NCBI GenBank assembly: GCA_051439605.1
Contig: JBFRWN010000124.1
Span: 96,001 to 160,000, forward strand
Length of the DNA: 64,000 nt
Origin: Synechococcus sp.
GTDB lineage: Bacteria; Cyanobacteriota; Cyanobacteriia; Thermostichales; PCC-7336
Reading direction: 5' to 3'
Every line of letters starts with the position of its first letter. The first letter of the stretch is position 1. The translations under genes and the position numbers were made by a program. Shown here piece after piece: positions 5,543 through 39,975 of this stretch. Under the pieces are notes generated by a model. It was not told where the DNA came from and did not search any database. It saw nothing but the letters and a program-made list of their open reading frames with translations.

Positions 5543-5573
5543 TCACCAATTCCTCAGATTCATTAACTAGATT
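5543..5573 (+). promoter_or_regulatory. TCAC-N7-TCA direct repeat plus -10 (TAGATT) upstream of hpf-like gene
   Basis: TCACCAATTCCTCAG, 11-bp spacer, TAGATT at 5568. Confidence 0.5.
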
Positions 5574-5610
5574 TATAGACAAAGGGAACTCATGCGAAGG
5601 CAGAAGACTT

Positions 5611-7555: not shown

Positions 7556-7846
7556 GCCGCCGTAAAAGAAACTGTCAAACCTGTCTACTCAAGATCGAGG
7601 TAGGAATAACTGCCTGCTGTTCTGCCAACTGATCCAAAACATCAGTCTAGTCGGAGTTTCATGCGCTGCCCCACTATAGCTCCAGCAAGCATTGTCAACT
7701 TTATTCAATGGGTCATTCCTTCTTGCAAAAGGTCTAAAGAAGTGGCCAAAAAATCTTAATCTACTGTTCCCAATGCCAAGAATTTCTGACTAAATTCTCA
7801 ATGAAGTGCAAGCATACCAGTTAATGTGATAATTCCGGTTGAACCA

Positions 7847-8482: not shown

Positions 8483-8937
8483 GACAGAATTGAACTTGTA
8501 ATATATTTATATCGTTGAGCTCGGATCTACTGCGTTACTCTGAATATCAAACCAATTTAAGTGAATGTGGTAATGATAAAACGATTAAATTGATCGCGAA
8601 CATTTGTAAGGCAAAATTACTGTACGTATTTTCGTCAACCTCTATCGAAGTCTAACCTTAGACAATTAGCTGTACGTGAGAGAAATAGCGATCTTATCTG
8701 AATTATATTAACAAAAAATATAGACTTCTACTACGTCTTGGCTTATTCAGTTTTAGTTTTGTAAGCAGCAACTATACTTAAAGAATAGAGCCTATAGAAC
8801 CGAAGCAAAAAACCTCAATCAATCACCTTGAGATTGATTAGTTTTCATATATGTATGAATCGTACATACAACAATAGCTTGATAGTCCTTTTTACATTCC
8901 ACCCAGTAGGGATTGCAATGGTAGAACCAGCTAAAAC

Positions 8938-9231
8938 TTATAGAAAAACAGAAAGTCTCTGGCCAAAATCAGCGAGGAGTTTACTCAATTGTTCCATTGT
9001 GTATCCGGGCTTCGATCGAACGGGAATGTCTGGATGAGTTGCGATGTGGATCTCATTGACAATTGCTGCGATTGATTCAAGATGCCCAAAGCTTTGTCCG
9101 TGCTTCATTGCTATCTCACGAAAGTGCTCGAACTGCTCTCTAGACATGTCCTTTCGGAAGGCAGCTAGATAGTCAAGAACTCGCTTCGAGGACTCTGCTC
9201 GGGATGGGCTTTTCCTTGAATAGTCTGTCAT
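8938..9231 (-). CDS. Hypothetical protein (97 aa)
   Basis: ATG start, GC-richer than the flanking intergenic DNA, amphipathic helical pattern. Confidence 0.55.
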   Translation of the reverse strand: MTDYSRKSPSRAESSKRVLDYLAAFRKDMSREQFEHFREIAMKHGQSFGHLESIAAIVNEIHIATHPDIPVRSKPGYTMEQLSKLLADFGQRLSVFL

Positions 9232-9673
9232 GGTGCCTGCTCATCAAATAGGGCTTGTTGTCTGTCATCGCGCAACATTCACCATCCTAAGATATGTTTA
9301 CGAGTCTGACTTAATAAATCGGCTGGAGGCCGAAGGATAGTAGAACCTTGGCTCTATTTAAGGCGATCGCACTGAATGACTCAAGGAACAAGTCACAGTT
9401 CCACGAGCAAGTTGCCCGACCGAAGGAAAACTTTCCGGAGAGCATTACTCGCGAGTCCACCTCTCAAAGGTAAGCAAATCCTTTGGACGTAAGCAACAGA
9501 TTGCTGATAATCACCCGTTCTTCATCCCTCAGATCGCGCTGGAATGACCTTGACGCTTTGGATGAGCAGCTATGGGCAAACGACTAGACAAGACCACCAG
9601 AACAAACCAGTTGCAGATCGGTGTGTCTGCAGATTAGCTGGCACTCTCTTGAGCTTACTTTTTACAGTAGTTC

Positions 9674-10012
9674 TTACTGCCAGTCAGCATCTGCTTGAGC
9701 TAGGACATAAGCTGAGACAGATTCAATTTGCTGTTCATCCAGTCGACCGGCAAAGGCAGGCATGGCATTTTTACCCTTCCTGACTTGAGATTGAATGGCG
9801 TCTATGGATGCCATGTTGTACTTCCCTAAGGTTGCTTTCTTTAGATCTTTGTTAGCGACTACAAGGTTAGCCCCGCCCTTGTGACAAGTCACACATTGAG
9901 CGTTAAAAACAGTTTTACCGAGGCTAAGATCGGGTTCTGCGCTAGCAGGATATGGAAAAGCAAGAGCTAAAACGACTAAAGCAACAAAAACAATACGAAT
10001 GAGTCTATTCAT
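9674..10012 (-). CDS. petJ: Cytochrome c6
   Basis: Signal peptide ending PASA, CVTCH heme motif, GKNAMPAF axial Met. Confidence 0.93.
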   Translation of the reverse strand: MNRLIRIVFVALVVLALAFPYPASAEPDLSLGKTVFNAQCVTCHKGGANLVVANKDLKKATLGKYNMASIDAIQSQVRKGKNAMPAFAGRLDEQQIESVSAYVLAQADADWQ

Positions 10013-10371
10013 CGAACAATGCTCCCGCTGCGCACAAGACAATTATTTCTAATGAGGTATACATTTTCGACAAGGCATCAGATTTTGTCAAAAGACAGGC
10101 TGTCAAAGATTATATTCTGTTTCATCTGGAAAAGAATATTGTCTGAGATGATATATTCTACTTCGGCTAAGCGTTGAGTTTGCGAGCTTCAGTAAAAATG
10201 GCCGATCAAAATCCCCTTTTCCTGTTTAAGTTCGAAATAAACAGTTACTAGAAACTTGATAATTTACACGCTACTCGAATCAGTTTCCCAGTCACTTATA
10301 AAGGAGAAAACTCTTTAATATTTTGCGAAATAAAACTATTTTGTAAGATTTGCTGTCTCAGTTATAATTCC

Positions 10372-10402
10372 TCACAAGAATCTCAAGTCAACTCTGTATC
10401 CT
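10372..10402 (+). promoter_or_regulatory. TCAC-N7-TCA direct repeat plus -10 (TATCCT)
   Basis: TCACAAGAATCTCAA, 11-bp spacer, TATCCT at 10397, upstream of the DHODH-like/pfkA operon. Confidence 0.5.
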
Positions 10403-10665
10403 TAATTGTGGTCAAGTGTTTTCCTTAAAGTCTAAAGCAAGTATTGATGGATATTCTATGTAATGAAACTATTCTGAATGATTTACAGAAAAATGCTGAA
10501 ACATTAAGCTGTAATAAAGTCCTCAATGGCTAGTTATTGAAGTCGATCTTCATTTCTAGATAGTGTCAAATTTTGCATAAGGGAGAACTTAGCATGACAC
10601 GGAACATGTTAGCTACTCGGTATCGTGGCATCCATAGTCTACCAACGGTCACACAAAGTGACAGC

Positions 10666-10679
10666 AATCGTACGTTGAG
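10666..10679 (+). promoter_or_regulatory. AATCGTACGTTGAG promoter element (contains TACGTT -10)
   Basis: Identical 14-mer at 16663-16676, at nearly the same distance from the next ATG. Confidence 0.55.
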
Positions 10680-10715
10680 GTGGAGAAAAAACACTCGGCC
10701 AAGAGGTAATTTGTA

Positions 10716-11744
10716 ATGGATTTAACGACAACGTATATGGGGTTGGAATTGCGATCCCCATTGGTTCCCTCAGCATCAGCCCCCCTGACTCACGAGATTG
10801 AAAACGTCAAAAAGATGGAAGACGCTGGCGCGGGGGCAGTAGTTCTGCATTCCTTGTTTGAAGAACAGCTGAAGATGGAGCAGGACAAAGATCGCCAACA
10901 CCACACCTACGGAATCGAAAGTTCTGCCGAAGCCCTAAGGTATCTTCCCGAACCCCGAATCTTCCAGGTGGACCCCTCTACCTACCTGAACAATATTCGT
11001 GCTGCCAAGGAAATGGTCAAGATTCCCATCATTGCCAGCCTCAATGGTTCCACGATGGGGGGATGGACAGAATACGCAGTTCAAATTGAGGAGGCAGGGG
11101 CCGATGCCATCGAGCTCAATATTTACCAAGTACCGACTGACTTCGATCGCACTGGTTCTGAAATCGAACAAACCTATCTAGACATTGTTTCTGCAGTTAA
11201 ATCGGCTGTTTCTATTCCGGTGGCAGTGAAACTCAGCCCTTACTTCAGCAATATGGCCAATATGGCTAAGCAAATCTCTGAGGTAGGAGCAGATGGATTA
11301 GTTCTCTTCAATCGCTTTTATCAACCCGATATCTATATTGATAGCTTGGAGGTAAGACCGAGTATTCTTCTCAGTACGCCGCAGGCACTCCGATTGCCCA
11401 TGCGGTGGATAGCGATTCTCTACGGCCGAGTTTCTGCCGATCTCGCTGCTTCGGGTGGCATTTCCATCGGTCAAGAGGCCATAAAAATGCTCATGGCGGG
11501 AGCGAGCATCACCATGGTTTGTTCGGCACTTTTACGACATGGCATCAATTATTTGTCCACCATCGAAGAGGGTATGTGCAAGTGGATGCAGGATAATGAC
11601 TACACATCGGTACGCCAGTTACAAGGCATTGTGAGCCAAGAAAACTGTCCCGATCCCGATGCCTTCGAACGCGCTCAATATATACGTGCTATTCAGAGCT
11701 ACTTGCCAAGCAAGGACTACTCCCCGTCCCGCTACTATGGATAA
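10716..11744 (+). CDS. Dihydroorotate dehydrogenase-like flavoprotein (type usually linked to PFOR/NifJ)
   Basis: MDLTTTYMGLELRSPL..GAVVLHSLFEEQ..ELNIY..AVKLSPYF..LFNRFYQPD..FERAQY. Confidence 0.88.
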   Translation: MDLTTTYMGLELRSPLVPSASAPLTHEIENVKKMEDAGAGAVVLHSLFEEQLKMEQDKDRQHHTYGIESSAEALRYLPEPRIFQVDPSTYLNNIRAAKEMVKIPIIASLNGSTMGGWTEYAVQIEEAGADAIELNIYQVPTDFDRTGSEIEQTYLDIVSAVKSAVSIPVAVKLSPYFSNMANMAKQISEVGADGLVLFNRFYQPDIYIDSLEVRPSILLSTPQALRLPMRWIAILYGRVSADLAASGGISIGQEAIKMLMAGASITMVCSALLRHGINYLSTIEEGMCKWMQDNDYTSVRQLQGIVSQENCPDPDAFERAQYIRAIQSYLPSKDYSPSRYYG

Positions 11745-11756
11745 CGCGAACATCTT

Positions 11757-14170
<2,414 letters not shown>

Positions 14171-14303
14171 CTAAATCAATCCCTACGACGGAACGGTTGG
14201 CCTGCTGCAGTTGCTCCGATAACACCGCATCTAACTTGGTGGCCACTGTATCTGCTAAAGCGATCTGCAGGAGGTCGGCCAATTGCTTGCAAAAAGAACT
14301 CAG

Positions 14304-14768
14304 CTATGTGGGTTGGATAACTAATGTGTTGCAGCGTGCGTGATGCACGACATAGTTACTGACGCTACCCAGCATCAATTCGGTGAGTCTCGATCTACCG
14401 TGCCGTCCCATTACTATCAGATCGGTGTTCCTGTCTCGGGCAACGTCGCAAATAGTTCGGCCAGGATCTCCATATTTTTGGACAATCTCCGAATTCACAC
14501 CTGCAGCGCTGACTTTTTCTGCGTACTTTTGCAGCTTTTGCAAGCAAGACTGCTCGAACTCTTGCCACTTATGCTGAAACGTTAAAAAATCATCTATAAG
14601 AGAAGAAGGAGCATAAAAAAGATTTGGCGGAGCCCCTTCCTCCTCACCATACATAACGTGAAGCAGCGTTAATTCAGCTCCAGTTGCTTTAGCTAATTGC
14701 ACCGCCTTTTGAAAAATTGATTCGCTTGTTTTCGAGATATCCAGAGCGACAAGAATTTTTTGAATCAC
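14304..14768 (-). CDS. Universal stress protein (UspA family), paralog of 613-1152
   Basis: IQKILVALD...IVMGRHGRSRLTELMLGSVSNYVVHHARC. Confidence 0.95.
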   Translation of the reverse strand: MIQKILVALDISKTSESIFQKAVQLAKATGAELTLLHVMYGEEEGAPPNLFYAPSSLIDDFLTFQHKWQEFEQSCLQKLQKYAEKVSAAGVNSEIVQKYGDPGRTICDVARDRNTDLIVMGRHGRSRLTELMLGSVSNYVVHHARCNTLVIQPT

Positions 14769-14988
14769 AATTGCTTAACCTTTTTGGCGTGTAAATGTAT
14801 TGAATTGTTAGGCCCAACCACTCGTCCTTGTTCGTAGGTTAATCGGTGGACAGCCTTGTTGAAGAGCTGAGGGATTCTCTCCATAGAGGTAAACCATTCT
14901 CATCTCGTAAAGCTAAACTATCATTTCCTTTTTTCACTTCGTTTTCCTTCGACTCTATTTCTGCCTGCAGCGGTCCTGTTCGAACCAT

Positions 14989-15546
14989 TTAAACCTCCAT
15001 TGATTTATAAACGGAACTCGTTGCGCTGTTATTTCCTCCTGGTTCGCCACTCGCAACAGTCCAATTTCCCTCCGCTCTGGTAAGAATGGCTGGCCGCAGC
15101 CCATACGGTTCTGGGGTAATGTGACGGGCAAAATTCATCACCTCTATGCGGGAGGGAACGAATTTAATCAGCACGTAGTCCTCCCCTTCTGGGCCTGTTG
15201 GATAAAAAGTAATCCACTGTTCAACCCAATATTTCTGCTGCAAGTCCGTGTCAGACACAATCTGAGCGGTCCCATTCAGAGTCACGTAGGCGGTGTCAGC
15301 GGGATCGTAAAAGGCGACAGTAACCTGGCTGTTGTTGCGAATGTCCCGCACCTTTCGAGACTTCGCGCTGGTTCCAAACCAAAGGGTTAAATCTGGCTGG
15401 GGCTGAAAGTGTTGCATGAGCCGGCTGTCGATCTGGCCCGAGAGACCAATAGTACTGAGGAAACAGTAATCTACTGCCTGAAGGGTGGCTTCTACCGCTT
15501 CGAGAATAGGCTCTACAGTCGTTGGTGGGGGATGTTTGCTAACCAC
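14989..15546 (-). CDS. Pyridoxamine 5'-phosphate oxidase-like / general stress protein 26 (FMN split barrel)
   Basis: CFLST..SRLM..LWFGTSAKSRKVRDI..YVTLNGTA..LIKFVP. Confidence 0.85.
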   Translation of the reverse strand: MVSKHPPPTTVEPILEAVEATLQAVDYCFLSTIGLSGQIDSRLMQHFQPQPDLTLWFGTSAKSRKVRDIRNNSQVTVAFYDPADTAYVTLNGTAQIVSDTDLQQKYWVEQWITFYPTGPEGEDYVLIKFVPSRIEVMNFARHITPEPYGLRPAILTRAEGNWTVASGEPGGNNSATSSVYKSMEV

Positions 15547-15573
15547 TTGAATGCATCCTTTATTGTTTGGTGA

Positions 15574-15783
15574 CTACAACAATCGGGCCTGGTTCATCGC
15601 AGGGTTACAGTCCGAAAGGCATTTCTCGAGAAAAATCAGCAATCTTTCCTTGACATTTGCGACCGGTAGATCGTGAGTGGAGATACTCGGCGGTTGGTGT
15701 ATCCCAGTGCGATTGTAAAGAATGTCCCGAGCCCTTTCCATCACTTCCAGCTTAAGCTCAGAAGTTCGTATATTGGTTGCCAT
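15574..15783 (-). CDS. Small hypothetical protein
   Basis: 69 aa, GAGG upstream, co-oriented just ahead of the PNPOx-like gene. Confidence 0.5.
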   Translation of the reverse strand: MATNIRTSELKLEVMERARDILYNRTGIHQPPSISTHDLPVANVKERLLIFLEKCLSDCNPAMNQARLL

Positions 15784-15943
15784 TCAGGCCCTCACCAAGT
15801 CAGAACCCAGTAGCCATCTAGCAACAAAACTTCAAGTCAGTCGGATATTCGTGTTCCAAACAGGCGAACAAAGCTCAGATGATGGCCCGCTTTGGCTTGA
15901 AAGTATTACCCAAAACGCGCCCTTTTTAATTAACCTAATAAAG

Positions 15944-16147
15944 CTACAACGAGTGCCTTATTTTTCTGTCAAGTATTGAATAGCCGGTCACAAGAAGAAT
16001 TACTAGTATAATAAAGTCTATCATTAATGTAATGGCAGGATTGATGGGGAAGAGAAGCTGATTTAATTTGGCAAAAGCAACAATGAATAGCAATAGACCG
16101 ATGACGGGGGCAATCACATACTGCAGGGTTTCGGTAATAGCGTTCAT
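15944..16147 (-). CDS. Small two-TM membrane protein, paralog A
   Basis: Strong RBS GAGGAGG; 19/66 ungapped identities with 22144-22344. Confidence 0.75.
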   Translation of the reverse strand: MNAITETLQYVIAPVIGLLLFIVAFAKLNQLLFPINPAITLMIDFIILVILLVTGYSILDRKIRHSL

Positions 16148-16632
16148 GAGAAGTACACCTCCTCAAGTTAGGATTAATGGATAGAAAAACCCTTCTACTA
16201 ATATTTTAGGCCGTTTGAAAAGCTCTATCTATGGAATGGTTGCAAAATTTCACCTGAATGATTGAATTCTGGGGAGAATCGCCAAAGCCGATGTCAACAA
16301 GTTGAAGTTTGTATTATAGGTTAATCAGCGGTTAGAATTGTTTCAAAAGAAGAGTCCAAGTCAAGCACGAACTTTGCTTTTTCCTGAATTCCCCATTGCA
16401 GCGATGTTGGGACTTTCCTCTCTTCTAGTTGACTACCGTACCAAGCGATCGGTCATTTGACTACTGAGCCTAGTACTGGATCGATTGAGTTCCAGCGCTA
16501 TCAGATGTTACGAGCTATCGATATCTAGTTCGTGCAGATACCTAGGACATTGAGCGATAATGAAAATAGATATTTTACGCAATTGGCAAATTCAATTATG
16601 TGTAGCATTTGGTCTATGCAATTGATAGCCAG

Positions 16633-16676
16633 AGTGACAATTTTTGCTGCCAGAAAAAGTTGAATCGTACGTTGAG
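16633..16676 (+). promoter_or_regulatory. AGTGACAATTTTTGC box plus AATCGTACGTTGAG element upstream of the Rieske gene
   Basis: Both motifs also occur upstream of 10716 (10562-10576 and 10666-10679). Confidence 0.55.
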
Positions 16677-16711
16677 TCGGCAGGCAGATCTAAACGATCG
16701 AGGAGAGCCTT

Positions 16712-17098
16712 ATGCGATGGGTAAAAGTGTTAGAGCAAGGCGCTCTGTCAGAGGGAATGCGACATGTCGTTAAGGTTGGCAAACTTTCAGTTCTTCTCCT
16801 CCAAGAAAAAGGAGAAATACTTGCTATGGATAGTATCTGTCCTCATATGAGAGGACCCATGCAAAAGGGAGAATTGACCGCAGATGGCGGTATTGTTTGT
16901 CCGTGGCATCGTAGTGTTTTCGATATACGTACTGGTGACGTCAAACAATGGTGCCCTTGGCCACCAGGTGTAGGAAAGGCATTGGGTGCAATTTCACGTG
17001 AAAAAGCTCTACCAGTTTTTCCCGTACGGCTGGAAGATGGGAGTATCTTGATTGGCCTAGATGAATCGAAGACTGAGGGGATTGGAAACTCCCTTTAG
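16712..17098 (+). CDS. Rieske [2Fe-2S] ferredoxin
   Basis: CPH...CPWH motifs; RBS GAGGAG. Confidence 0.92.
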   Translation: MRWVKVLEQGALSEGMRHVVKVGKLSVLLLQEKGEILAMDSICPHMRGPMQKGELTADGGIVCPWHRSVFDIRTGDVKQWCPWPPGVGKALGAISREKALPVFPVRLEDGSILIGLDESKTEGIGNSL

Positions 17099-17152
17099 CG
17101 AGCAGTAGTAAAACCACGTCCATGTAGAATCGGGAGTTTACAGGGAAGTTCC

Positions 17153-18406
17153 ATGGACGCCTACAACTCAGCTTTATACGAAAAGATTAAGCGTCTGATT
17201 GATTCCAATCCTCAGGGAAGAATCACTTTTGCCCAATTCATGGAGGTTGTTCTCTACAATCTTCGCCAGGGTTACTATTCCGCCCATGCAAAGAAAATTG
17301 GCAGTTATGGAGACTACTATACTTCTCCTCACTTAGGTCCTCATTTTGGAGAACTGTTAGCGGAACAGTTTTTCGATATGTGGCAGTCGCTCGGGTACCC
17401 TAACCCATTTTCACTGGTTGAAATAGGATCCGGTCAAGGGGTACTGGCTGGCGACATACTCATGTATGTCAAGAATCAATATCCGTTTTTCTTTCAGTGC
17501 ATACGTTATGTAATGATAGAAATCTCTCCTGAACTACGGTCTTTTCAGCAGGGACTACTACTCAGCGTTGATGGTTTAGGGGAAAAGATTCAATGGGTGT
17601 CTTTTGAAGATATATCTAAGAGTTCTATCGTTGGATGTATATTTTCCAATGAATTGGTGGACGCCTTTCCCGTTCATTTAGTTGAAGTCCGCAACAGACA
17701 GCTACATGAAATCTATGTATCGGCAAGTTCTGACACAAGCAATCTTACTCGTTTGCAGGAAGAAGTCGGCGAACTATCTACCTCGCACATAGCTAACTAT
17801 TTCAGTCGGTTAGGAACCAATTTGGAGTCAGACCTTTATCCAAACGGATATCGAAGCGAGGTAAATCTGGCGGCAATTGACTGGATAAAAATAGTGGCAG
17901 ATAAGCTCTTGCAGGGATATTTGTTAACGATTGACTACGGTTACAGCAATTCTCAGTATTACAGTCCGAAACGCCCTCGCGGGACTCTGGCTTGCTATTA
18001 CCGACATACCGTTCGCGATAATCCTTACCTGCTATTGGGTGAGCAGGACATCACAACCCATGCCAATTTCACAGCTTTGGAATATTGGGGTGAGTATTTT
18101 GGTTTGCAGAGGTTGGGGTTTACACGACAAGGACCTTTTCTAATGGCCCTCGGACTCGGGGAAAAAATGGCCGAGCTATCTCTACCCCAAGAGACGGCTC
18201 GCGGAACAAACATTCAAGAGATACTGCATCGCCGTCATGCCTTGCATTTATCGATCCATCCTCACGGACTGGGCAACTGGGGAGTGCTTATTCAGGGAAA
18301 AGGATTGAGTGAACAACAATTAGCTGTTCCTTTACGTGGATTGGCAAATGCTGCAGAGACAGCGGAGGATTGGTGCGCGATGCCTTTATCCCAGTCAGCT
18401 ACTTGA
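17153..18406 (+). CDS. SAM-dependent methyltransferase, MidA/NDUFAF7 (DUF185) family
   Basis: ITFAQFM..GYY..GDYYTSP..VEIGSGQGVLA..SNELVDAFPVH..IDYG..GEQDITTHANF. Confidence 0.92.
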   Translation: MDAYNSALYEKIKRLIDSNPQGRITFAQFMEVVLYNLRQGYYSAHAKKIGSYGDYYTSPHLGPHFGELLAEQFFDMWQSLGYPNPFSLVEIGSGQGVLAGDILMYVKNQYPFFFQCIRYVMIEISPELRSFQQGLLLSVDGLGEKIQWVSFEDISKSSIVGCIFSNELVDAFPVHLVEVRNRQLHEIYVSASSDTSNLTRLQEEVGELSTSHIANYFSRLGTNLESDLYPNGYRSEVNLAAIDWIKIVADKLLQGYLLTIDYGYSNSQYYSPKRPRGTLACYYRHTVRDNPYLLLGEQDITTHANFTALEYWGEYFGLQRLGFTRQGPFLMALGLGEKMAELSLPQETARGTNIQEILHRRHALHLSIHPHGLGNWGVLIQGKGLSEQQLAVPLRGLANAAETAEDWCAMPLSQSAT

Positions 18407-18465
18407 AATTTCAATGGCCGATCGCAGGTGTTTCATTCGATCTTGGATTATCCCAAAAACTGAGT

Positions 18466-19452
18466 TTAGAGATAAGTCGTTGACGCTGCGTACATTTCCG
18501 CCAAAAGCTCGCTATGTTTGCTAGCCAACCAACGCTCCGCATCCATCGCTGCCATGCAGCCCGTTCCCGCAGCAGTTACGGCCTGGCGATACACGCGATC
18601 CTGTACATCGCCACAGGCAAATACACCGGAAATGCTGGTTTGGGTTGAGTGAGGCGCAGTCACGATGTATCCCTTGTCATCGAGTTCCAGCCATCCCTTG
18701 AACAAATCGCTATTGGGTTTGAGCCCGATTGATACAAATACTCCATCGAGTGTCAAAACTCTGATTTCGCCCGAGACAACATTTTCCAACTGGATGGCTT
18801 CAACCGAGGGGTTACCCAGAATATCGCGCACGACCGTATTCCAAATAATGGTGATGCGATCGTTTTCGAACAACCGTTGCTGCATAATTTGGCTGGCTCT
18901 TAGCCGATCGCGGCGATGAATCAGATACACGTGACTGGCCGTACGGGTGAGCAACAGCGCATTTTGGACGGCTGTGTCTCCCCCCCCAATCACGGCAACC
19001 GGGACATCTTTGAAAAATGCACCGTCGCATGTAGCGCAGACTGACACACCTCGACCGAGCAACAAACGCTCGCTCTCTATACCCAAATATCGGTGAGTAG
19101 CCCCTGTTGCAATGATGGCGGTATCGGCCAAGAGCAGGTCCTTGCCATCAACGGAGATCAGAAAAGGCCATTCCTCAAAATTCACCCGGGTGACGATGCC
19201 AAAGCGCCGATCGGTGCCAAAGCGAGCGGCTTGCTGCTCGAACACGCTCATCAATTCAGGTCCCAAGATTCCTTTGGGAAAGCCAGGGTAGTTTTCAACA
19301 TCACTGGTTGTCATCAACTGTCCACCCGGCTCTGGCCCTCGAATCAGCAAGGGGTGCAAGTTAGCCCGCGCAGCATAAATAGCAGCAGTGTATCCTGCTG
19401 GACCCGCTCCAATGATGACAACGTGTCTGCGTTCGTAGCGCGAGACTGTCAT
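18466..19452 (-). CDS. trxB: NADPH-dependent thioredoxin-disulfide reductase
   Basis: GAGPAG FAD motif, CATC active site, GGGDTA and HRRDRLRAS NADPH motifs, FACGD. Confidence 0.95.
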   Translation of the reverse strand: MTVSRYERRHVVIIGAGPAGYTAAIYAARANLHPLLIRGPEPGGQLMTTSDVENYPGFPKGILGPELMSVFEQQAARFGTDRRFGIVTRVNFEEWPFLISVDGKDLLLADTAIIATGATHRYLGIESERLLLGRGVSVCATCDGAFFKDVPVAVIGGGDTAVQNALLLTRTASHVYLIHRRDRLRASQIMQQRLFENDRITIIWNTVVRDILGNPSVEAIQLENVVSGEIRVLTLDGVFVSIGLKPNSDLFKGWLELDDKGYIVTAPHSTQTSISGVFACGDVQDRVYRQAVTAAGTGCMAAMDAERWLASKHSELLAEMYAASTTYL

Positions 19453-19453
19453 T

Positions 19454-20224
19454 TCACGATTTCACCTCCTTTGGTGCTTGAAGGGTAATTGCTTCGGCAG
19501 CCTTTACCTGCCATTCCGCCGGGTAAATTCCCGCATCGATCAGAGCTTGAGGTGGAGCTTTGCGGGTGGGAGATTCCAAATATTCCGGTGTGACGGCGGG
19601 GGGAACGGGAACGAGTTGGTGAGCAATGGTGTAGTAGCGGTGGGTTTGAGCCAACTTGCCGCGATCGCTCAAATCTTCTCCTGCAATTTTCTTGCGCAAC
19701 TTGACGATGGCGTCAAACATGGCCTCCGGACGTGGCGGACATCCGGGCATGTAAACATCGACGGGGATTAACTTATCGACGCCGCGCACTGCCGAGTAGG
19801 AGTCGGTGCTATACATCCCTCCCGTAATCGTGCAGGCTCCCATGGCAATCACGTATTTGGGATCCCCCATTTGGTGGTAGAGCTTCACCAGTGCCGGAGC
19901 CATCTTCATGGTGACTGTTCCGGCTGTAATGATGAGATCCGCTTGCCGCGGGCTGGAGCGGGGCAACAGACCGAACCGATCGAAATCGAACCGAGGCCCC
20001 AGGAGGGATGCCATTTCGATAAAGCAACAGGCTGTCCCGTAGAGTAGAGGCCACAGGCTAGAGAGGCGGGCCCAGTTGTATAGGTCGTTAACGCTGGTCA
20101 AGATGACGTTGTGACTCAGCTCCTTAGTGACCTGCGGTGGCCCAACAGGGTTGATGAGGCTGCTGAATGGTTTTTCCTTGACCTCTGATTGATTGGTCGC
20201 AACTGTCGGTCGATCGGTATTCAT
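19454..20224 (-). CDS. ndhK: NDH-1 subunit K, island copy (NdhK2)
   Basis: [34 protein letters not shown] (N2 ligands). Confidence 0.96.
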
Positions 20225-20250
20225 GGATCCTCCTCAGACAGAGGTAGATG

Positions 20251-21435
20251 CTAGCGGTCTACCTCGCCCATAATGATGTCAATGCTGCCAAGAATGGCAA
20301 TGATATCCGCCACCTTCATTCCCTTAACCAATTGGGGTAAAACCTGAAGGTTGATAAAACCAGGGGGACGAATTTTCCACCGCCAAGGAAAGATGTTTGC
20401 ATCACCCATGAGATAGATACCGAGTTCACCTTTCGGGGCCTCCAGGCGCGCGTATACTTCTCCCTCCGGGAATTTGAACATCGGTGAAGTCTTCTTGCTC
20501 GCAAACTGATATTGAAAGTCACTCCATTCCGACTTGGGACCTCCCATCATCCGCTGGGCTTCTAGATTCTCGTAAGGACCTCCAGGCAGTCCGGCGATCG
20601 CTTGTAAAACAATCTTGGCGGACTCCCGCATTTCGTTGATGCGGACAAAATACCTGGCCAGACAGTCACCGCCCGTTTCCCAAACCACATCCCAATCGAA
20701 ATCGTCATAGCACTCGTAATGGTCAACTTTTCGCAAGTCCCATTTCATGCCTGAAGCCCGTAGCATCGGACCTGAAACCCCCCAACCTATTGCATCTTCG
20801 CGACTGAGAGTGCCGACACCTTCGGTGCGCATGCGGAAAATAGGGTTATCGGTAATCAGCCGTTCGTATTCATCGACTTTGGGTATGAAGTAGTGGCAAA
20901 AATCTTCAACTTTATCAACCCAACCGTAGGGAACGTCGGCAGCCAGTCCACCAATACGGAAGAAGTTTTGCCCGACCATTCGCATCCCCGTGGCGGCTTC
21001 AAATAAGTCGTAAATCAGTTCTCTTTCTCGAAAGATATAAAAGAATGGAGTATGAACTCCCAAATCCGAGCAAAAGGGTCCCAGCCACAATAGGTGATTG
21101 GCAATGCGGCTGAGCTCAAGCAAGATGACCCGCAAGTAGCTCGCCCGTCTGGGTACGGAAATATCGGCAAGTTTTTCAGAGGCGTTGACGGCAATCGCCT
21201 CGTTCCACATGGCTGCAGCATAATCCCAACGGGTTGTATACGTGATGTATTGTATTGCCGTACGATTTTCGGCAATTTTCTCCATTCCGCGATGTAGATA
21301 CCCGACAATGGGGGTGCAATCGACGACATTTTCGCCATCTAAAGTGACTAGCATGCGGAAAACACCATGGGTGGCCGGGTGATGCGGCCCCATGTTGATG
21401 ACCATCTGGTCGAGCTTGGTTTCGACAACTGTCAT
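20251..21435 (-). CDS. ndhH: NDH-1 subunit H, second copy (NdhH2)
   Basis: [28 protein letters not shown]-terminal GEVDR; full length and paralogous to 37540-38721. Confidence 0.97.
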
Positions 21436-21644
21436 GAACTCAGCGGCTTAGCTTCCGCGCTAAACGGGATTGCAGGTTTTGAAACTCGATGCTGCTCGAG
21501 AACTTTTAAAGGCATACTGAGAGCTTGAATGTAGACAAGCGACTGTACCTTCAGGGATTTCGATGTCGATACAGCAGTTTGACTCAGAAAAGACAGATAT
21601 TCTACGGAGTAGCTTCAAACTTGCCTAAAACTCCTCTCCACCCA

Positions 21645-21694
21645 ACCTTATTGCCACAACTTCTTTAGAGGCTTGCTACAACTTCTGTTAGAGG
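21645..21694 (-). promoter_or_regulatory. 22-bp-period direct repeat abutting a TAAGGT -10 element upstream of ndhH2
   Basis: TTGCCACAACTTCTTTAGAGG / TTGCTACAACTTCTGTTAGAGG on +; on the minus strand followed at once by TAAGGT. Confidence 0.5.
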
Positions 21695-22143
21695 TCTCGT
21701 TTCACTAGGCTTTATCCTACATACAGTTTAGTATTTTCAAAGATAGACTGCTAATGCTGGCCGGGAAGTGTCAAAATTTTTACCCTAGTCGGCTATTGTA
21801 TACAGAACAGTATTCATTAAAGTTATGATGTATTAATTAATATCATTTATTTCTCTTGTGCCTGCCACGAACATTCCCAATCTTTAGGAAGCCAGTTGGT
21901 AGACATTCCTTACTGTAAATATTTCATGCTCTCGGTGCGATTTAAAATCCACCTCTGAAATAAATTTAACTTCAGCTTAGAAGGCAATACAATTTTCAGC
22001 TTGCTAACATCAATATTGGCTAATAGAAACAAAAAACTCTTTCGAGCAAATAGGCAACTTTGTATCGTATAGCTTTAATAGATCTACAATAACTCTACAG
22101 GAAAGCTCCTGTCAGACAACATCAAATCAGGAAGGTTGTTCTC

Positions 22144-22344
22144 ATGGAATACATTATAGAAATTCTGCAGCATGCGATCGTACAGATCCTTGGCTTATTT
22201 CTGTTGGCTGCTATACTTAGAAAAATAAATAAATTTTTATCTTTCATAAGTGTCGATCTTGTGATTCTAATAGACTTTGTCTTAATAATAGTATTTATGA
22301 TTTCATGGTACTATTTTATTAGTAGGAATATAGTCTTCACATAG
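22144..22344 (+). CDS. Small two-TM membrane protein, paralog B
   Basis: RBS AGGAAGG; aligns without gaps to 15944-16147. Confidence 0.75.
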   Translation: MEYIIEILQHAIVQILGLFLLAAILRKINKFLSFISVDLVILIDFVLIIVFMISWYYFISRNIVFT

Positions 22345-22767
22345 TATTTTTTGTTAGTTTTTGCTGGAATATCGTATTGAAATCAGATTTAATTACTGTA
22401 TTGTTTCTGCTTTATGCTGTCTCATTCAGAAATAAGAGCCACGTCTAGCTAGAAAGCCGTAGTTTTCAAAATCTGACCACAATGCTTTTTGAGTAAGGGC
22501 TTTAACCCCTAAGAAGGTCTGCAGAAAAACCAGCTCTCTGAATGCATACTTTTGTAATAGTATAGAGAGACTTTCAGAATCGATCTTCTATAATTAATGT
22601 AGAGTATTGTTGGTAAAGTTTGCAGACGGTTTCATTTGAAACGCATGACTCACCACAATACATTTCCTCTGTCTGTTTATAGAGCTTCAACACACTACAG
22701 AGGCAAGCGTATTTTAGAGATGAAACCAACAGGCACATCCCTACTCAGCTAGAGTTAGGAGGACGAG

Positions 22768-23253
22768 ATGACTATTAACCATCAATTTGATAAAGGCCAG
22801 ACAATAAACCAGCTCAACCGGATACTGGAATCGGAACTGGCTGGGGTGGTGCGCTACACTCACTACTCCCTGATGATTTTTGGCTACAATCGCATTCCAA
22901 TTGTGTCGTGGTTCCGATCCCAAGCGGACGAAACCCTGATTCACGCCCAGCGAGCAGGAGAAATGGTAACGCATTTAGGCGGACATCCCTCGCTAGCTAT
23001 CGGGTCGCTGCTGGAAACCCACAAACACGATATTGGGGAAATTCTGCGGGAGACAATCGAGGCAGAATTTAGGACGCTGCAGCTGTATTACGGATTGCTT
23101 GAACTGGTGGAAGGCAAGTCCGTGCCGATTGAAGAATATGCCAGGGAGTTGATAGCTGCAGAAGAACAGCACCTGGATGAAATTGACAAAATGCTGCGGC
23201 GACCTGGACATATTGAGGTGAGTGAGGAGGCAACGGCGATCGCAAACTCATGA
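22768..23253 (+). CDS. Ferritin-like (bacterioferritin-related) protein
   Basis: ELAGVVRY..ETLIH..E..EEQH di-iron pattern; RBS AGGAGG. Confidence 0.88.
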   Translation: MTINHQFDKGQTINQLNRILESELAGVVRYTHYSLMIFGYNRIPIVSWFRSQADETLIHAQRAGEMVTHLGGHPSLAIGSLLETHKHDIGEILRETIEAEFRTLQLYYGLLELVEGKSVPIEEYARELIAAEEQHLDEIDKMLRRPGHIEVSEEATAIANS

Positions 23254-23993
23254 CAATCCAGGCTCTGTTTCAATCAATGTGTTGATGAAGACTTACTAAG
23301 CTTCTTGGTGATTCTAGGAAATATCTCTGATAATTGTAGTATGGCTGATCGAGCGAGTGAATTTTTCGAACTTGATTGCAAGAGTTTCGAAAAGGTTCGT
23401 CATAGCGAGGATTTTGCTGTTTATCCCACGAATTGCTCCCAAAGGAGAATGACGTTAGGGAAGTAAGTGGCGGATCAATTGTTTGTTTTCGTCTGGCCTT
23501 TTTTTGTGGTGCAAGGTTTTTGTCTTTTTCCTTGCTTTACGATCGCTTATAGAGTGCGAAACCACTCGATAGAACAGCTTGAGCCGATCGACACGATACA
23601 TTCCTTATAGATGAAGTAACGCCCTTGAGGGGTTGCAATCTTTGGACTTCAATCTAGGGGAGCGGAATTCCTGCTCCCTTGCTCGCTTGGAGTAGGATAA
23701 GCAAAAAGCATAATTTTGTGAAAAGGCTACTACAATTATTCCTATCCGAGGTAGAAGAAAACAGCATTTGGGTTGGTATGGAAAAGGCATGGGACCTCAA
23801 TAGCCAATCTCAGGAGCGCCAGAAAGTGAGGCCGACATGAATCGGACAGCCTGGAGGTAGCGCAAACGTTTTATGGATTGCTGATATCGATTCGTTGATA
23901 ATCTCTACAATAGAGTCTGTTTATCAAAACATTTCACGGCAGCAGTTTCAACCTCCTTGCAATCAACTACAAGTATAAAGTAGAGGTAGAAAT

Positions 23994-24338
23994 ATGACTG
24001 CAAATATCACTGATACAAAAAAAATAACAAAAGAACAGGCCATAATAGCTGTACTAGAGGCCGAGAAAAAATCAAGATATGCCATTGAAAAATGCAAATC
24101 TGAAGAAGATAAAATAATGCAAGAAGCACGCCAGAAGTCCCAGAAAATTATAGAGCGTGCCGAGCAACGTATGGCGCAAATTCATCGGATTTGCAATCAA
24201 TTAAGCACCAATGAAGTGAATCGAACTGAGCAAGAAGCTGAGGAACATGCTAAGCAACTACTTTCATGTGAAATAGATTTTAAGATAGCAACAGTCGTGG
24301 TTGAAAAAGTTGCAGAGATGTTGACTGAAGAACTCTAG
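23994..24338 (+). CDS. V/A-type ATPase peripheral stalk subunit G/H-like
   Basis: Coiled-coil AI..VLEAE..A..AIEK..EARQK; first gene of the ATPase operon. Confidence 0.7.
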   Translation: MTANITDTKKITKEQAIIAVLEAEKKSRYAIEKCKSEEDKIMQEARQKSQKIIERAEQRMAQIHRICNQLSTNEVNRTEQEAEEHAKQLLSCEIDFKIATVVVEKVAEMLTEEL

Positions 24339-24371
24339 GTCTAAGGTATATAAAAGCTTTTGGTCGTACTC

Positions 24372-25133
24372 ATGTTGAAAGACTTTATCTATATTCAAAC
24401 TCGACTTCAAGCTCGGCATGGTATGCGCCCCGACAACCAAGAATGGCAGATTCTGGAAAGTCAAAAAGATCTAGCGGCTTTTTTGCACAGTGCACGCCAT
24501 ACTCGTCTGAAGCCCTGGGTACTCAGTCTGCATGCAAGCGACAATCACCACGTACTAGAAACAACACTACGCCAACTTTACTGCAATTATGTGGATGAAG
24601 TCGAACACTGGATGCCCTCGGTATGGCAAGCATCAGTGCGGTGGGTAAAGTACCTACATTATTTGCCTTCGCTTCAATATCTATTGTCTGGCAATATAGT
24701 CTATGCCTGGATGTTGGAAGATCCACAACTTAAAGAGTTGACTGGAACTAATGTAGAAACACGTATCCAAATTCTGCGCCAGTCTGCATATGCTCCACTC
24801 ATCGATCCTTGGCAGTCAGGAAAACCGCTGTTAACAGCTTGGACCGAACATTGGCGATCGTTATGGCCCGATCAAAACAACAATAGATCTATAAATAAAT
24901 TGATTTCATCAATCGATGGGCATCTTTTTAAATTTGGGCAGATCTCATCTCATCCGGGGAGAAAAAGCCGCGAGATATTTACTGCCAAACTATCTATCCT
25001 ATTTCGCCAGTTCAGTTATCAGCCGGTTGCTGTTTTCATCCATCTAGCACTTATTGCTTTAGATGTTGAAAGGTTGCGCAGTAATATTCTGCAGCGTTGT
25101 TTATTCGATCGTTCTAAGGTTGTGCTGCTATGA
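24372..25133 (+). CDS. V/A-type ATPase subunit C-like
   Basis: Operon position; YIQTRLQARHG N-terminus; 4-bp overlap with subunit I. Confidence 0.65.
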   Translation: MLKDFIYIQTRLQARHGMRPDNQEWQILESQKDLAAFLHSARHTRLKPWVLSLHASDNHHVLETTLRQLYCNYVDEVEHWMPSVWQASVRWVKYLHYLPSLQYLLSGNIVYAWMLEDPQLKELTGTNVETRIQILRQSAYAPLIDPWQSGKPLLTAWTEHWRSLWPDQNNNRSINKLISSIDGHLFKFGQISSHPGRKSREIFTAKLSILFRQFSYQPVAVFIHLALIALDVERLRSNILQRCLFDRSKVVLL

Positions 25134-26950
25134 CATTCAGGCCTGTTCCAGCCCGCTGGTTTGAAGTAATCGCGACTCAAGAGGATTTACTCAGCGCGTT
25201 AGACATCCTGCGAAAAACTGGAGATATCGAATTGGAAATTCATAGTGAAATGCCTCGTCCCACTACAATTACTAATCTACAAAATCGTTTGGAAGGCTTT
25301 AATCAGCTTGCACGTCAATATCGAGCCTATTGGCCCAAACCTAATCCTCACGCTACGAAAGTAGTTGGTTTACCTGGCGAATGCTTAGATAGCGCCTTAG
25401 AGAAATTCAGCCTCTGGAGGCAGGCAGCCGATTCGCTAGTTGAACTCATTGAGGAGTTAGCGAGCGAACAGGATGACTTGTTATGCCTGTCGGAGTTTTT
25501 ACAGAAACTGCAAGGTGAAGAATTAGATTTCGCCAACCTCGCACGTGCAGGGCCTATCCTTTGCGCACGCTTATTTGTATTTCCATTTACAACTCAGATC
25601 GAACATTTGCCTACTTCAGCACTATCTATTCAAGTTCCGACAGACGAACGTATCTTTTTGTTAATAGTTGGGGAAGTTGAAACAGTTGATGGCTGGCAAC
25701 GGGATTTATTATTGCAGAAAGGTCGCGCTATTACATTGCCTAACTGGCTCAATGGTAAACGGACAAATGTTGTTGCCCAGGTAGAACAACGGAAAATCCA
25801 GATTCGCGAGAAATTGACGTTGCTTAATGCACAGCTGGATACCATTGCTACAAAACATCATTTGCCAGGAGTGTTGAGCGAGATACGGCAGATTGAGTGG
25901 TTTATTACTCATGCGAGTAATTTACCTGTTTCAGACAATTTTGCCTGGATCACGGGTTGGACCAGCGATATTTCTAGCGATCGACTCAATGAGGCCTTGG
26001 AAGCTGCATCTGTTCGTGCTGTGGTTCATTATCCACCGCCGCCAGTAGAGGCCAAGCCACCCATGGTGTTACAAAATCCCTGGTGGTCAAAACCCTTTGA
26101 GCTATTTGCCAAACTGTTGGGTATACCCTCCACCAACGAAATCGATCCTTCCATGTTTCTCGCATTGATTGTGCCATTGCTATTTGGCTACATGTTTGGG
26201 GACGTTGGCCAAGGTTTTATCCTGATGGTTGCTGGTATTACTATGCAGCGCCACTTTCCAATGCTCAAACTTTTAATAGGATGTGGCTTATCGGCTATGG
26301 TGTTTGGCCTGGTATTCGGGAGCGTGTTCGCTAGTGAAACAATTATTAACCCTTTATGGGTCAATCCTATCAACTCTCCCTTGTCTGTATTGTTCGTTCC
26401 TTTAGGAGGTGGTGTAATCCTGCTGCTATTGGGGCTTGCCTTTAGTGGCGTGCAGGCTTACTGGCAAGGTGAACTGAAAAACTGGTTGCTCAAAGAGGCT
26501 GCTACGATCGCAATATACATCGGGATTGTCGGAAGCGTTTTTCATCTGATTATCAGCATACTGATATTAATTGGGGGGATTTGGTATGTTGCAGGCAGCT
26601 TGTGGTTGACTGACAATCCTTCTCCCAAAGCTCTGTTACCTGTGCTAGGTCAGCTCCTGGAAAGTGGACTGCAATTAATTATTAACACGATTTCTTTTAT
26701 TCGGGTCGGTGCATTTGCCTTAGCCCACGCAGGACTTTCATTGGCATTCATTATCATGGCTGACGCAACTGGCAATGTCCTTCTAGCTGGAATCATTATA
26801 CTGATTGGAAATATTGTCATTATTCTTTTAGAAGGTCTGGTAGTCTCGATTCAAACCACCAGATTGATACTGTTTGAATTTTTCATTCGGTTTATGCGAG
26901 GCACCGGTCGCATGTTTCATCCGTTAGCCATATCTTCAGAATCATCATGA
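25130..26950 (+). CDS. V/A-type ATPase subunit I (a)
   Basis: EIDPS..FGYMFGDVGQG, NTISFIRVGAFALAH (essential Arg), LEGL..IQTTRLILFEFF. Confidence 0.95.
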   Translation: MTFRPVPARWFEVIATQEDLLSALDILRKTGDIELEIHSEMPRPTTITNLQNRLEGFNQLARQYRAYWPKPNPHATKVVGLPGECLDSALEKFSLWRQAADSLVELIEELASEQDDLLCLSEFLQKLQGEELDFANLARAGPILCARLFVFPFTTQIEHLPTSALSIQVPTDERIFLLIVGEVETVDGWQRDLLLQKGRAITLPNWLNGKRTNVVAQVEQRKIQIREKLTLLNAQLDTIATKHHLPGVLSEIRQIEWFITHASNLPVSDNFAWITGWTSDISSDRLNEALEAASVRAVVHYPPPPVEAKPPMVLQNPWWSKPFELFAKLLGIPSTNEIDPSMFLALIVPLLFGYMFGDVGQGFILMVAGITMQRHFPMLKLLIGCGLSAMVFGLVFGSVFASETIINPLWVNPINSPLSVLFVPLGGGVILLLLGLAFSGVQAYWQGELKNWLLKEAATIAIYIGIVGSVFHLIISILILIGGIWYVAGSLWLTDNPSPKALLPVLGQLLESGLQLIINTISFIRVGAFALAHAGLSLAFIIMADATGNVLLAGIIILIGNIVIILLEGLVVSIQTTRLILFEFFIRFMRGTGRMFHPLAISSESS

Positions 26951-26966
26951 AAATGATAAGGAGGAA

Positions 26967-27323
26967 ATGGTCATGATTTCGCACAATAAACATCTATTTA
27001 TTTTGCTCAAGATTACCCTCTCGATCGCTATAGTGGGTGCCACACTTTTTTGGCTAGAGCCAACAATGGCAGCGACTGTTACTACAGATAGTTTAATATC
27101 ACCCGAAATTGTCCAAGCAAGTTATTTCTCTGCTGCATTAGCAACAGGTCTTTCTTCACTTGGTGCAGGCATTGCTGTAGCTTCAGTAGGGAGCGCTGCT
27201 ATAGGGGCATTAGCAGAAAAACCAGAGTTGTTAGGCCGCGTATTAATCATGGTTGGCCTTGCAGAAGGCATTGCAATCTACGGGCTGATCGTATCTATCC
27301 TAATTTTGAATGAAGTTATTTAG
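26967..27323 (+). CDS. V/A-type ATPase proteolipid subunit K (c)
   Basis: GAGIAV..AAIGALAEKPE..GLAEGIAIYGL with the ion-binding Glu; N-terminal signal-like extension. Confidence 0.95.
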   Translation: MVMISHNKHLFILLKITLSIAIVGATLFWLEPTMAATVTTDSLISPEIVQASYFSAALATGLSSLGAGIAVASVGSAAIGALAEKPELLGRVLIMVGLAEGIAIYGLIVSILILNEVI

Positions 27324-27324
27324 A

Positions 27325-27621
27325 ATGAGTGCACCGATTTTTATTGGCGATGAAATTAGCGCTGCAGGTTTTCGGCTAGCAGGCGTAGAGACTCGAACAC
27401 CAAACCCTGATGAACTTCCAAATCTAATCAAGTGGGCTTGTGTTAATACATCTCTGTTATTAATTACTGCGGAATATGCAGCTATGTTGTCCGCAGCAGA
27501 AAGACAACGTTTGCTGTGCCAGGAAATGCCTTTGGTCGTGACGATTTCAGATATTTGCGCTAAGACTCCCTTACCGGATTTAGTGACTGAATTACGATCG
27601 CAACTAGGAGTCTTAGCATGA
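27325..27621 (+). CDS. V/A-type ATPase subunit F
   Basis: IGDEISAAGFRLAGV motif. Confidence 0.92.
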   Translation: MSAPIFIGDEISAAGFRLAGVETRTPNPDELPNLIKWACVNTSLLLITAEYAAMLSAAERQRLLCQEMPLVVTISDICAKTPLPDLVTELRSQLGVLA

Positions 27622-28259
27622 ACGCATCATCCAGCATCGTTCACACACAAGTCGAGCGTTTACTCGATGTCGTGCAGAGATATCAACAACAGCAATGCGA
27701 CAAGATCGTCACTCGGGCTACAGCGGAAGCCGAGCAGATGATTCATCAGACTTATCGAGATGTCCGTCTTCGTTTACACCAGGAAATTCTAGACAGTCGC
27801 GATCGCCTGCAGGGGAAGATTTCAGCATCCAAGGCGAAAAGCCATACCCTCCGAAAAAAATACCAACACGAAGCAGACCGCCGCTATTTGGATCGGGCTT
27901 GGGATTTGCTGAAGGTTAAACTGATCGAACGCTGGCAGAACAAAGAATATCGGCAGCGATGGGTGCAAAAACATTTAGTAGAAGCATTGAGGCTTTTAAT
28001 TGGCCCAGAGTGGTTAGTTGAACATCCGCATAGTTGGACTGTGGATGAACAGCAGCATTTTATTCACCAGGTCAGGGATAAATGTGAGGTTGTTGTTAAT
28101 TTTTCTGCATCGCCAGATATTGTTGCCGGTGTTCGCATTTGCGCCAATGGAGCAACGATCGATGGCACTTTGCAAGGACTGTTGGCGGATCGGTCGCGAA
28201 TTGAGTCTGAATTATTAGCGCAATATCATCAGTATATTTTGTGTGGCAGTGGGTCATAA
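27618..28259 (+). CDS. V/A-type ATPase subunit E
   Basis: N-terminal coiled coil, C-terminal IVAGVRI...IDGTL; operon position. Confidence 0.8.
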   Translation: MNASSSIVHTQVERLLDVVQRYQQQQCDKIVTRATAEAEQMIHQTYRDVRLRLHQEILDSRDRLQGKISASKAKSHTLRKKYQHEADRRYLDRAWDLLKVKLIERWQNKEYRQRWVQKHLVEALRLLIGPEWLVEHPHSWTVDEQQHFIHQVRDKCEVVVNFSASPDIVAGVRICANGATIDGTLQGLLADRSRIESELLAQYHQYILCGSGS

Positions 28260-28302
28260 CAAATCCATCTAATTTGTCAAAGCGGGAAGCGAGGCAGTTG
28301 TT

Positions 28303-38721: not shown

Positions 38722-38822
38722 CGATTTGCCGCCAACTCAGCCCCCCCAGCTATCTGGGGCATATTCCCCTGTATGGCAGCCCTTTATTCAGTCGCTCGAA
38801 GCCTTTACGAGTACCCAACAGT

Positions 38823-39941: not shown

Positions 39942-39975
39942 ACCATCACTGACTGACCGATAGAGAGGACACGAC

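What the first reader, a model, noticed from the sequence alone, without database searches (positions are those of the whole stretch)
16712..21435. Candidate swappable NDH-1 quinone-site module: ndhH2-ndhK2-trxB facing Rieske-MidA/NDUFAF7
Seen: an intact second ndhH plus an ndhK, with no other ndh genes nearby, while the core ndhH sits 16 kb away in ndhH-A-I-G-E. trxB starts 1 bp after the ndhK2 stop. Converging on this operon are a Rieske ferredoxin and a MidA/NDUFAF7-family methyltransferase. Known: NdhH (NuoD/49 kDa) and NdhK (NuoB/PSST) together form the N2 cluster and quinone pocket. NDUFAF7/MidA methylates the Arg of the HRG motif of the 49-kDa subunit. Described cyanobacterial NDH-1 diversity is mostly in the membrane NdhD/F modules. 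Inference: a cassette that replaces only the Q-reduction site of NDH-1 under some condition, carrying its own maturation enzyme and redox partners.
Basis: partly seen in the sequence, partly recalled or inferred. Interest (0 to 1): 0.88.

Follow-up and report, generated by a model that had tools for sequence, protein, structure and literature searches.

The report
Spare NDH-1 quinone core with methylase
An early-branching marine cyanobacterium carries a second, different pair of the two subunits that form the quinone-reducing site of its photosynthetic complex I, next to its only copy of an arginine methylase, which suggests the cell can build that site in a methylated or an unmethylated version.

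Summary
Observation confirmed. ndhH2-ndhK2-trxB faces Rieske-midA. The genome also has core ndhH (75% identical) and core ndhK (72%, in ndhCKJ); ndhA/C/E/G/I/J are single. midA is the genome's only copy and was found in 0 of 6 family relatives. The H2-K2 tandem recurs in another metagenome contig (91% aa, mostly silent changes). A congener keeps a deleted H2-trxB relic. In another family an H-K/midA block has displaced the native genes. New result: in 301 cyanobacterial genomes all 47 lacking MidA have NdhH with Leu/Ile73 after Tyr72; all 249 without that signature have MidA; the 5 with both carry a second, Ala/Thr73 ndhH linked to midA. The signature was refined post hoc, and kin are not independent. 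The HRG motif alone does not predict MidA. Best reading (0.55): an accessory, MidA-dependent H/K core that assembles with the shared subunits into a second NDH-1 form. Methylation, assembly, expression and the dark/anoxic trigger are not shown. Rieske and TrxB have no demonstrated role. New variant of a known kind; interest 0.7.

The parts
20251..21435 (-). ndhH2, 394 aa, Ala73/long-loop type; keeps H19, H23, R49 (HRG), Y72, D124; Thr22 in place of the Met22 gate
19454..20224 (-). ndhK2, 256 aa; N2 ligands C66, C67, C131, C162 kept; [10 protein letters not shown] where core copies mostly read IEFAAxIGSR
17153..18406 (+). midA (PF02636, NDUFAF7 family), the only copy in the genome; proposed methylase of NdhH2 Arg49
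18466..19452 (-). trxB, NADPH-type thioredoxin reductase (CATC, HRRD); third gene of the putative operon; role not shown; 73% paralog on C81
16712..17098 (+). small Rieske ferredoxin upstream of midA; 50% paralog on C14; link to NDH-1 not shown
37516..41595 (+). core ndhH1-A-I-G-E; NdhH1 is the Leu73/short-loop type with HRA (plastid-like)
3400..34000 (.). lower-GC accessory region that hosts the module (HPF, cytochrome c6 paralog, DHOD-like, pfk, second ahcY, USP, ferritin-like, A/V-ATPase operon); approximate bounds

Best explanation
The locus is an accessory quinone-reduction core for NDH-1. NdhH2 and NdhK2 are co-transcribed and assemble with the single shared set of NdhA/C/I/J and the other subunits, in place of NdhH1/NdhK1. 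The adjacent MidA dimethylates Arg49 of NdhH2 beside cluster N2. NdhH2 needs this because it has a small residue at 73; the core NdhH1 has Leu73 and HRA and does without the enzyme, as in the rest of its family and probably plastids. The second form should differ in N2 potential or stability and in quinone access (Thr22 for the Met22 gate, changed NdhK helix 2). Shown: genes, linkage, conservation, co-occurrence. Inferred: co-transcription, methylation, assembly, Leu73 standing in for the methyl groups. Weakly inferred, from neighbours only: use in dark or low-oxygen sediment conditions. TrxB and Rieske are treated as co-regulated passengers.
For: Only H and K are duplicated: one match each for ndhA, I, G, E, ndhJ, ndhC. 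MidA: 1 copy here, 0 of 6 family genomes, 23 of 23 in the sister family. 301 genomes: MidA in 254; WDY[L/I]ATMFTEA in 52 = the 47 MidA-less genomes plus 5 dual-copy genomes; in those 5 the second ndhH has Ala/Thr73 and lies by midA. The 3 short-loop genomes that do have MidA read Ala73. G073: only ndhK sits in ndhH-ndhK facing midA, ndhC and ndhJ are 93 bp apart, while congener G054 has ndhC-K-J, Ile73 and no MidA. Sister family: ndhK-ndhJ-midA in a row (G007). L079 tandem: 25 of 310 residues differ (hand count) at about 82% DNA identity, mostly third positions. PMC8042128: the HRGXE arginine is dimethylated in mammals, yeasts and Paracoccus but not E. coli, whose N2 is about -220 against -150 mV; E. 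coli has Leu after the tyrosine and no PF02636 match (control). [quoted passage not shown]
Against: No expression, proteomic or activity data. The module is dispensable in kin: not found in 6 of 6 family genomes (85-100% complete), deleted in the closed genome G002. The G002 relic reads RAM, not RGM, at the motif. The residue-73 rule was set after seeing three exceptions to an earlier signature, and the 47 genomes fall in only six families, so it rests on a handful of independent events. No tree and no structural distance could be computed. Met71 of NdhK2 also occurs in an ordinary ndhC-K-J copy. No enriched promoter or FNR-like site. Three NDH structure papers have no word beginning 'methyl' in the main text, although T. 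elongatus NdhH is the Ala73 type.
Confidence: 0.55

Rival explanations
1. Redundant stage of gene displacement. The H-K-midA block is a mobile or anciently duplicated equivalent of the core genes with no special condition; it persists for a while and is then lost (G002) or takes over (G073).
For: Both end states are seen: relic in G002, full displacement in G073. It sits in an accessory region not found in three congeners. Most crown cyanobacteria use the MidA-linked type as their only NdhH.
Against: Both types persist side by side in 4 of 4 genomes of genus g25 and here; H2 and K2 stay under purifying selection over about 18% DNA divergence; clade-specific pocket residues are fixed in P0122, P0123 and L079.
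Confidence: 0.25
2. Pocket variant selected for insensitivity to a natural quinone-site inhibitor, or for another quinone; MidA comes along only as the needed maturase.
For: Changes cluster in elements that PMC6992706 names as chamber walls: beta1-2 loop (A21, T22, F26), four-helix bundle (S123-H128), NdhK helix 2. Other second ndhH copies lie behind AraC-like regulators.
Against: No regulator, exporter or quinone-biosynthesis gene beside this module; Thr22 also occurs in single-copy NdhH (G073, G196, G163 first copy).
Confidence: 0.12
3. NdhH2-NdhK2 works outside NDH-1 as a soluble hydrogenase-like dimer that passes electrons between the Rieske ferredoxin and TrxB.
For: trxB starts 1 bp after ndhK2, and was linked to ndhH2 in the ancestor shared with G002.
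Against: NdhH2 keeps all quinone-site residues and has no Ni-binding CxxC; its C-terminal half resembles the host family's core NdhH; TrxB is of the NADPH type; related modules lack trxB and Rieske.
Confidence: 0.05

Closest known systems
NDUFAF7/MidA acting on NDUFS2 (49 kDa) Arg85/R121 of respiratory complex I (PMC3829151, PMC8042128)
   Same: Same enzyme family (PF02636; PDB 5ZTZ hit E 1e-15), same HRG arginine (Arg49) beside N2, same pair of subunits (49 kDa and PSST).
   Different: Here the methylase is linked to one of two co-existing NdhH paralogs in a photosynthetic, ferredoxin-fed complex; activity on NdhH not shown.
Cyanobacterial NDH-1 isoforms NDH-1L/L'/MS/MS' (PMC9283085, passages)
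   Same: Alternative subunits on a shared core give different complexes.
   Different: Known isoforms vary the NdhD/NdhF membrane module; a 2026 preprint says the distal module leaves the quinone chamber unaltered. Here the chamber subunits themselves are alternative.
Synechocystis NdhK2
   Same: A second ndhK in a cyanobacterium (table entry in PMC7058544).
   Different: No paired ndhH or midA known to me (recalled); the window's K2 belongs to a small clade of its own.
midA-ndhH2 pairs and duplicated ndhK-J of family f16 (Gloeobacter-like by inference), and the ndhH-ndhK/midA block of G073
   Same: Ala/Thr/Gly73 NdhH with Thr22, physically linked to midA; second copy beside a Leu73 core in f16; same convergent H-K/midA layout in G073.
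   Different: f16 also duplicates ndhJ; none has trxB or the Rieske gene; identities 69-75%, so common origin is unresolved; I found no paper on them.

Membership tests
NdhH (NDH-1 49 kDa subunit) | NF005649 above cut-off, full length | tested here: met
   742 bits against 583, residues 1-394
NdhH (NDH-1 49 kDa subunit) | Quinone-site residues H23, Y72, D124 and the HRGxE arginine | tested here: met
NdhH (NDH-1 49 kDa subunit) | Assembles into NDH-1 | not testable with these tools
   needs BN-PAGE/MS
NdhK (NuoB/PSST) | Four N2 cysteines incl. tandem CC; NF005012 above cut-off | tested here: met
   C66, C67, C131, C162; 244 bits against 116
MidA/NDUFAF7 methyltransferase | PF02636 domain with glycine-rich SAM motif; homology to solved MidA/DUF185 | tested here: met
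MidA/NDUFAF7 methyltransferase | Substrate arginine in HRGxE present in a partner, and genomic coupling to it | tested here: met
MidA/NDUFAF7 methyltransferase | Symmetric dimethylation of that arginine | not testable with these tools
   needs MS or in vitro assay
Known NDH-1 isoform systems (NdhD/NdhF/Cup modules) | Alternative ndhD/ndhF/cup genes in the locus | tested here: not met
   none among the ORFs of the locus
Condition-swapped subunit module | Only the site-forming subunits are duplicated | tested here: met
   ndhA, C, E, G, I, J single; ndhB/D/F/L-V not checked
Condition-swapped subunit module | Five-gene order conserved elsewhere | tested here: inconclusive
   H2-K2 in L079 (contig ends in K2), H2-trxB relic in G002, H-K/midA in G073; all five nowhere else among 30 genomes of the order
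Condition-swapped subunit module | Conditional expression | not testable with these tools
   no RNA run listed
NADPH thioredoxin reductase (TrxB) | TIGR01292 above cut-off; CxxC and HRR motifs | tested here: met
   386 bits against 343; CATC and HRRD in the translation

The most novel reading that the evidence does not exclude
Cyanobacteria have two interchangeable chemistries at the N2/quinone site of NDH-1: a methylation-free Leu73 form (early-branching lineages and plastids) and a MidA-methylated small-residue form (most others). Some early-branching cells keep both and switch between them, resetting the N2 potential and the quinone gate between light and dark or anoxic life.
Probability: 0.25. 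Interest if true: 0.88.

Novelty: new variant of a known kind. Interest (0 to 1): 0.7.

Why it matters
What the dimethyl-arginine beside N2 does is an open question in complex I research, because mutating the arginine destroys the cluster (PMC8042128). A cell that holds one methylase-dependent and one methylase-free version of the same subunit on a shared scaffold, and a one-residue predictor (73) of the need for the enzyme, make the question directly testable. It would also extend NDH-1 modularity from the membrane arm to the catalytic site, and suggests that plastid NDH descends from the methylase-free type.

Tried and rejected
Trees, dN/dS by program and a recombination test: not done, the script machine was lost; counts of differences are by hand. 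HRG-versus-HRA/S as the predictor of MidA: rejected, 6 of 47 MidA-less genomes have HRG. Short loop (MRMMHNYFR) as predictor: 3 exceptions among 55. The pattern also admitted Gly, so it served as the total count. Assembly artefact or contamination: rejected. Recent duplication of the core genes: rejected (72-75% identity, different type). Recent transfer from a sampled crown genome: no donor, best NdhH hit 77% and best MidA outside the clade 57% (8000 candidates scored each). Promoter, terminator and FNR-like scans (FNR box recalled): at chance level. Expression: no RNA holder listed. trxB search of genome contigs gave 46-59% hits, mostly non-cyanobacterial, none examined beyond L150, which has no ndh gene. 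Cluster look-up timed out. (0 of 5) had no positive control in the same call. No structure or complex prediction was run: H-K is a textbook pair and enzyme-substrate jobs are uninformative. Literature: ten searches listed no paper on a second ndhH, an ndhH-ndhK-midA block or NdhH methylation in cyanobacteria; only listings were seen for most hits, subscription papers are not covered, and no supplements were read.
Full report
1. Observation. All five genes are intact at the stated coordinates and pass their family cut-offs, the Rieske protein by Pfam. The genome (G000, 99.98% complete, 4.1% contamination) has two ndhH (75% identical), two ndhK (72%; the core one in ndhC-K-J on C98), one midA, and one match each for ndhA, I, G, E, ndhJ and ndhC. 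The core NdhH1 is nearly the same as P0009, named Synechococcus sp. PCC 7336 by its source, so the host is an early-branching cyanobacterium. The 12 runs listed for the stretch are marine sediment DNA from 3 studies; 4 were laid and all hold near-identical pieces.

2. Setting. The module lies in an accessory region of about 30 kb (roughly 3.4-34 kb), mostly 41-48% GC against 51% for the genome, though the H2-K2-trxB genes are 53%. Apart from ahcY in G002, paralog hits and short repeats, the region was not found in three congeners, whose flanks are syntenic on each side. It holds a ribosome hibernation factor, a USP, pfk, a DHOD-like gene, a ferritin-like gene, a second ahcY and an A/V-type ATPase operon. 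Reading these as dark or low-oxygen genes is my inference from general knowledge.

3. Is the module conserved? No full-length NdhH above 77% was found apart from a 99% relative, but NdhK2 has orthologs at 99, 87 and 85% and MidA at 91, 76 and 74%; the top relatives of all three list the same longest contig length. Metagenome contig L079 has ndhH2 directly before ndhK2 with the same 26-bp spacer and ribosome site; 25 of 310 NdhH residues differ (hand count) at about 82% DNA identity, mostly third positions. The closed congener G002 has a relic: 33 codons of ndhH joined to the 3' part of trxB at a short shared sequence. The piece is closer to NdhH2 (23 of 33) than to G002's own core NdhH (20 of 33) and has the H2-type residues around Tyr72, but reads RAM at the motif. 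It lies 17 kb from the ftsH ortholog and near a match to the DNA upstream of the Rieske gene, so the operon was probably in the common ancestor and was deleted there. The five-gene order was found in none of the other 29 genomes of the order.

4. Two kinds of NdhH. NdhH1 reads [14 protein letters not shown] and a short loop (MMHNYFR), like plastid NdhH at the last two; NdhH2 reads [14 protein letters not shown] and a loop one residue longer, like T. elongatus NdhH. In 301 genomes of the class (G000 plus 300 drawn at 90% completeness or more), PF02636 was found in 254. HR[A/S] occurs in 46: 41 lack MidA and 5 have a second HRG copy. The short loop occurs in 55 genomes, three of which have MidA without a visible long-loop copy; these three read Ala73. 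With the signature refined to WDY[L/I]ATMFTEA the split has no exception: 52 genomes, namely all 47 without MidA and the 5 dual-copy genomes; the 249 others all have MidA (27 of the 47 identified from family tallies and absence from the match list). The refinement was post hoc and the 47 fall in six families. Within-group contrasts help: G054 against G073 (one genus), G154 against its family, G000 against its family, f36 against other short-loop families. E. coli fits: Leu after the tyrosine, no PF02636 (control), arginine unmethylated (PMC8042128, Discussion read).

5. Linkage elsewhere. In 4 of 4 genomes of genus g25 (family f16) midA lies under 100 bp upstream of the second, Ala/Thr73 ndhH, and the two tested also duplicate ndhK-J; G144 has the same pair. 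In G073 ndhH-ndhK face midA as in the window, without trxB; that ndhK is the only one found, and ndhC-ndhJ are 93 bp apart, whereas congener G054 has ndhC-K-J. An H-K/midA block can therefore supply the whole quinone site. In the sister family midA follows ndhK-ndhJ (G007). Second ndhH copies as such are common, 23 of 301 genomes, and those looked at in crown families are unlinked to ndhK.

6. What differs in the pocket. H23, Y72, D124, R49 and the four N2 cysteines are kept. PMC6992706 (passages) names the beta1-2 loop, the four-helix bundle and NdhK helix 2 as chamber walls, and Met22 as blocking the way to N2. NdhH2 has Thr22, as do the f16 second copies and G073; NdhK2 has Met71, Ser73, Pro77, fixed in its orthologs, though Met71 also occurs in one ordinary copy. 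The C-terminal half of NdhH2 shares residues with the host family's core NdhH, which may reflect long residence or gene conversion; no tree could be built.

7. Mechanism. Most likely (0.55) H2/K2 replace H1/K1 on the shared scaffold, MidA methylates Arg49 of NdhH2, and the second complex has a different N2 potential and quinone gate. The mitochondrial precedent is from PMC3829151 (abstract start and passages) and PMC8042128. That Leu73 fills the space of the methyl groups is my inference and was not modelled. Rivals: redundant stage of displacement (0.25), inhibitor- or quinone-adapted pocket (0.12), soluble dimer with Rieske and TrxB (0.05). TrxB has been linked since the ancestor shared with G002 but has an unlinked 73% paralog here and a free-standing relative in G001; the Rieske gene has an unlinked 50% paralog.

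8. Known and new. Papers seen as passages only: PMC6992706, PMC12170339, 10.64898/2026.08.03.742399, PMC7058544, PMC9283085. The three structure papers do not mention methylation in the main text; supplements were not read, and those of the preprint are closed. Ten searches listed nothing on this arrangement. As far as its summary shows, it does not mention the two NdhH types, residue 73 or the H-K module.

9. Verdict. Real, conserved in a small marine clade, with parallels in other early-branching lineages. New variant of a known kind.

Noticed in passing
window 23994-32090: Complete A/V-type ATPase operon in the accessory region, not found in three congeners; a further partial A-subunit hit on C120.
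   Followed up: partly
window 12857-14158: Second ahcY (39% to the copy on C19), 3 kb from midA; would clear S-adenosylhomocysteine made by a methylase (inference).
   Followed up: no
L284:777-3371 (G163): A second ndhI-ndhH-ndhK operon in family f36; H has Thr22 and HRGIEK, K shares YHQM with the window's K2. G180 also has a second ndhH.
   Followed up: partly
L031:8701-10906, L033:6790-8962, L239:6097-8814: Second ndhH copies of crown families read HGCF; two sit directly behind AraC-like regulators, one is tandem with the core copy. A separate, possibly inducible paralog family.
   Followed up: partly
P0127 and P0245: A K2-like NdhK and one of the next-closest MidA proteins both list a longest contig of 221,301 bp; possibly a related module. 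Locus not obtainable.
   Followed up: no
L234:9321-10361 (G144): The only ndhH found in this genome changes frame near its 3' end; assembly error or decay.
   Followed up: no
coordinates: In many crown genomes midA lies 2-3 kb from ndhH (for example G074, G206, G220, G241, G183, G166).
   Followed up: no
L266:1478-2506 (G001): A close relative of the window's trxB stands divergent from a PEP synthase gene, with no ndh gene beside it.
   Followed up: partly
window 55396-56715: Phycobilisome linker domain followed by a long Pro/Ala-rich extension.
   Followed up: no
window 59826-60341: Small signal-peptide protein made of about five near-identical 23-residue repeats; no Pfam match.
   Followed up: no
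window 33180-33485: Short ORF that looks like a transposase remnant near the right edge of the accessory region; no Pfam match.
   Followed up: no
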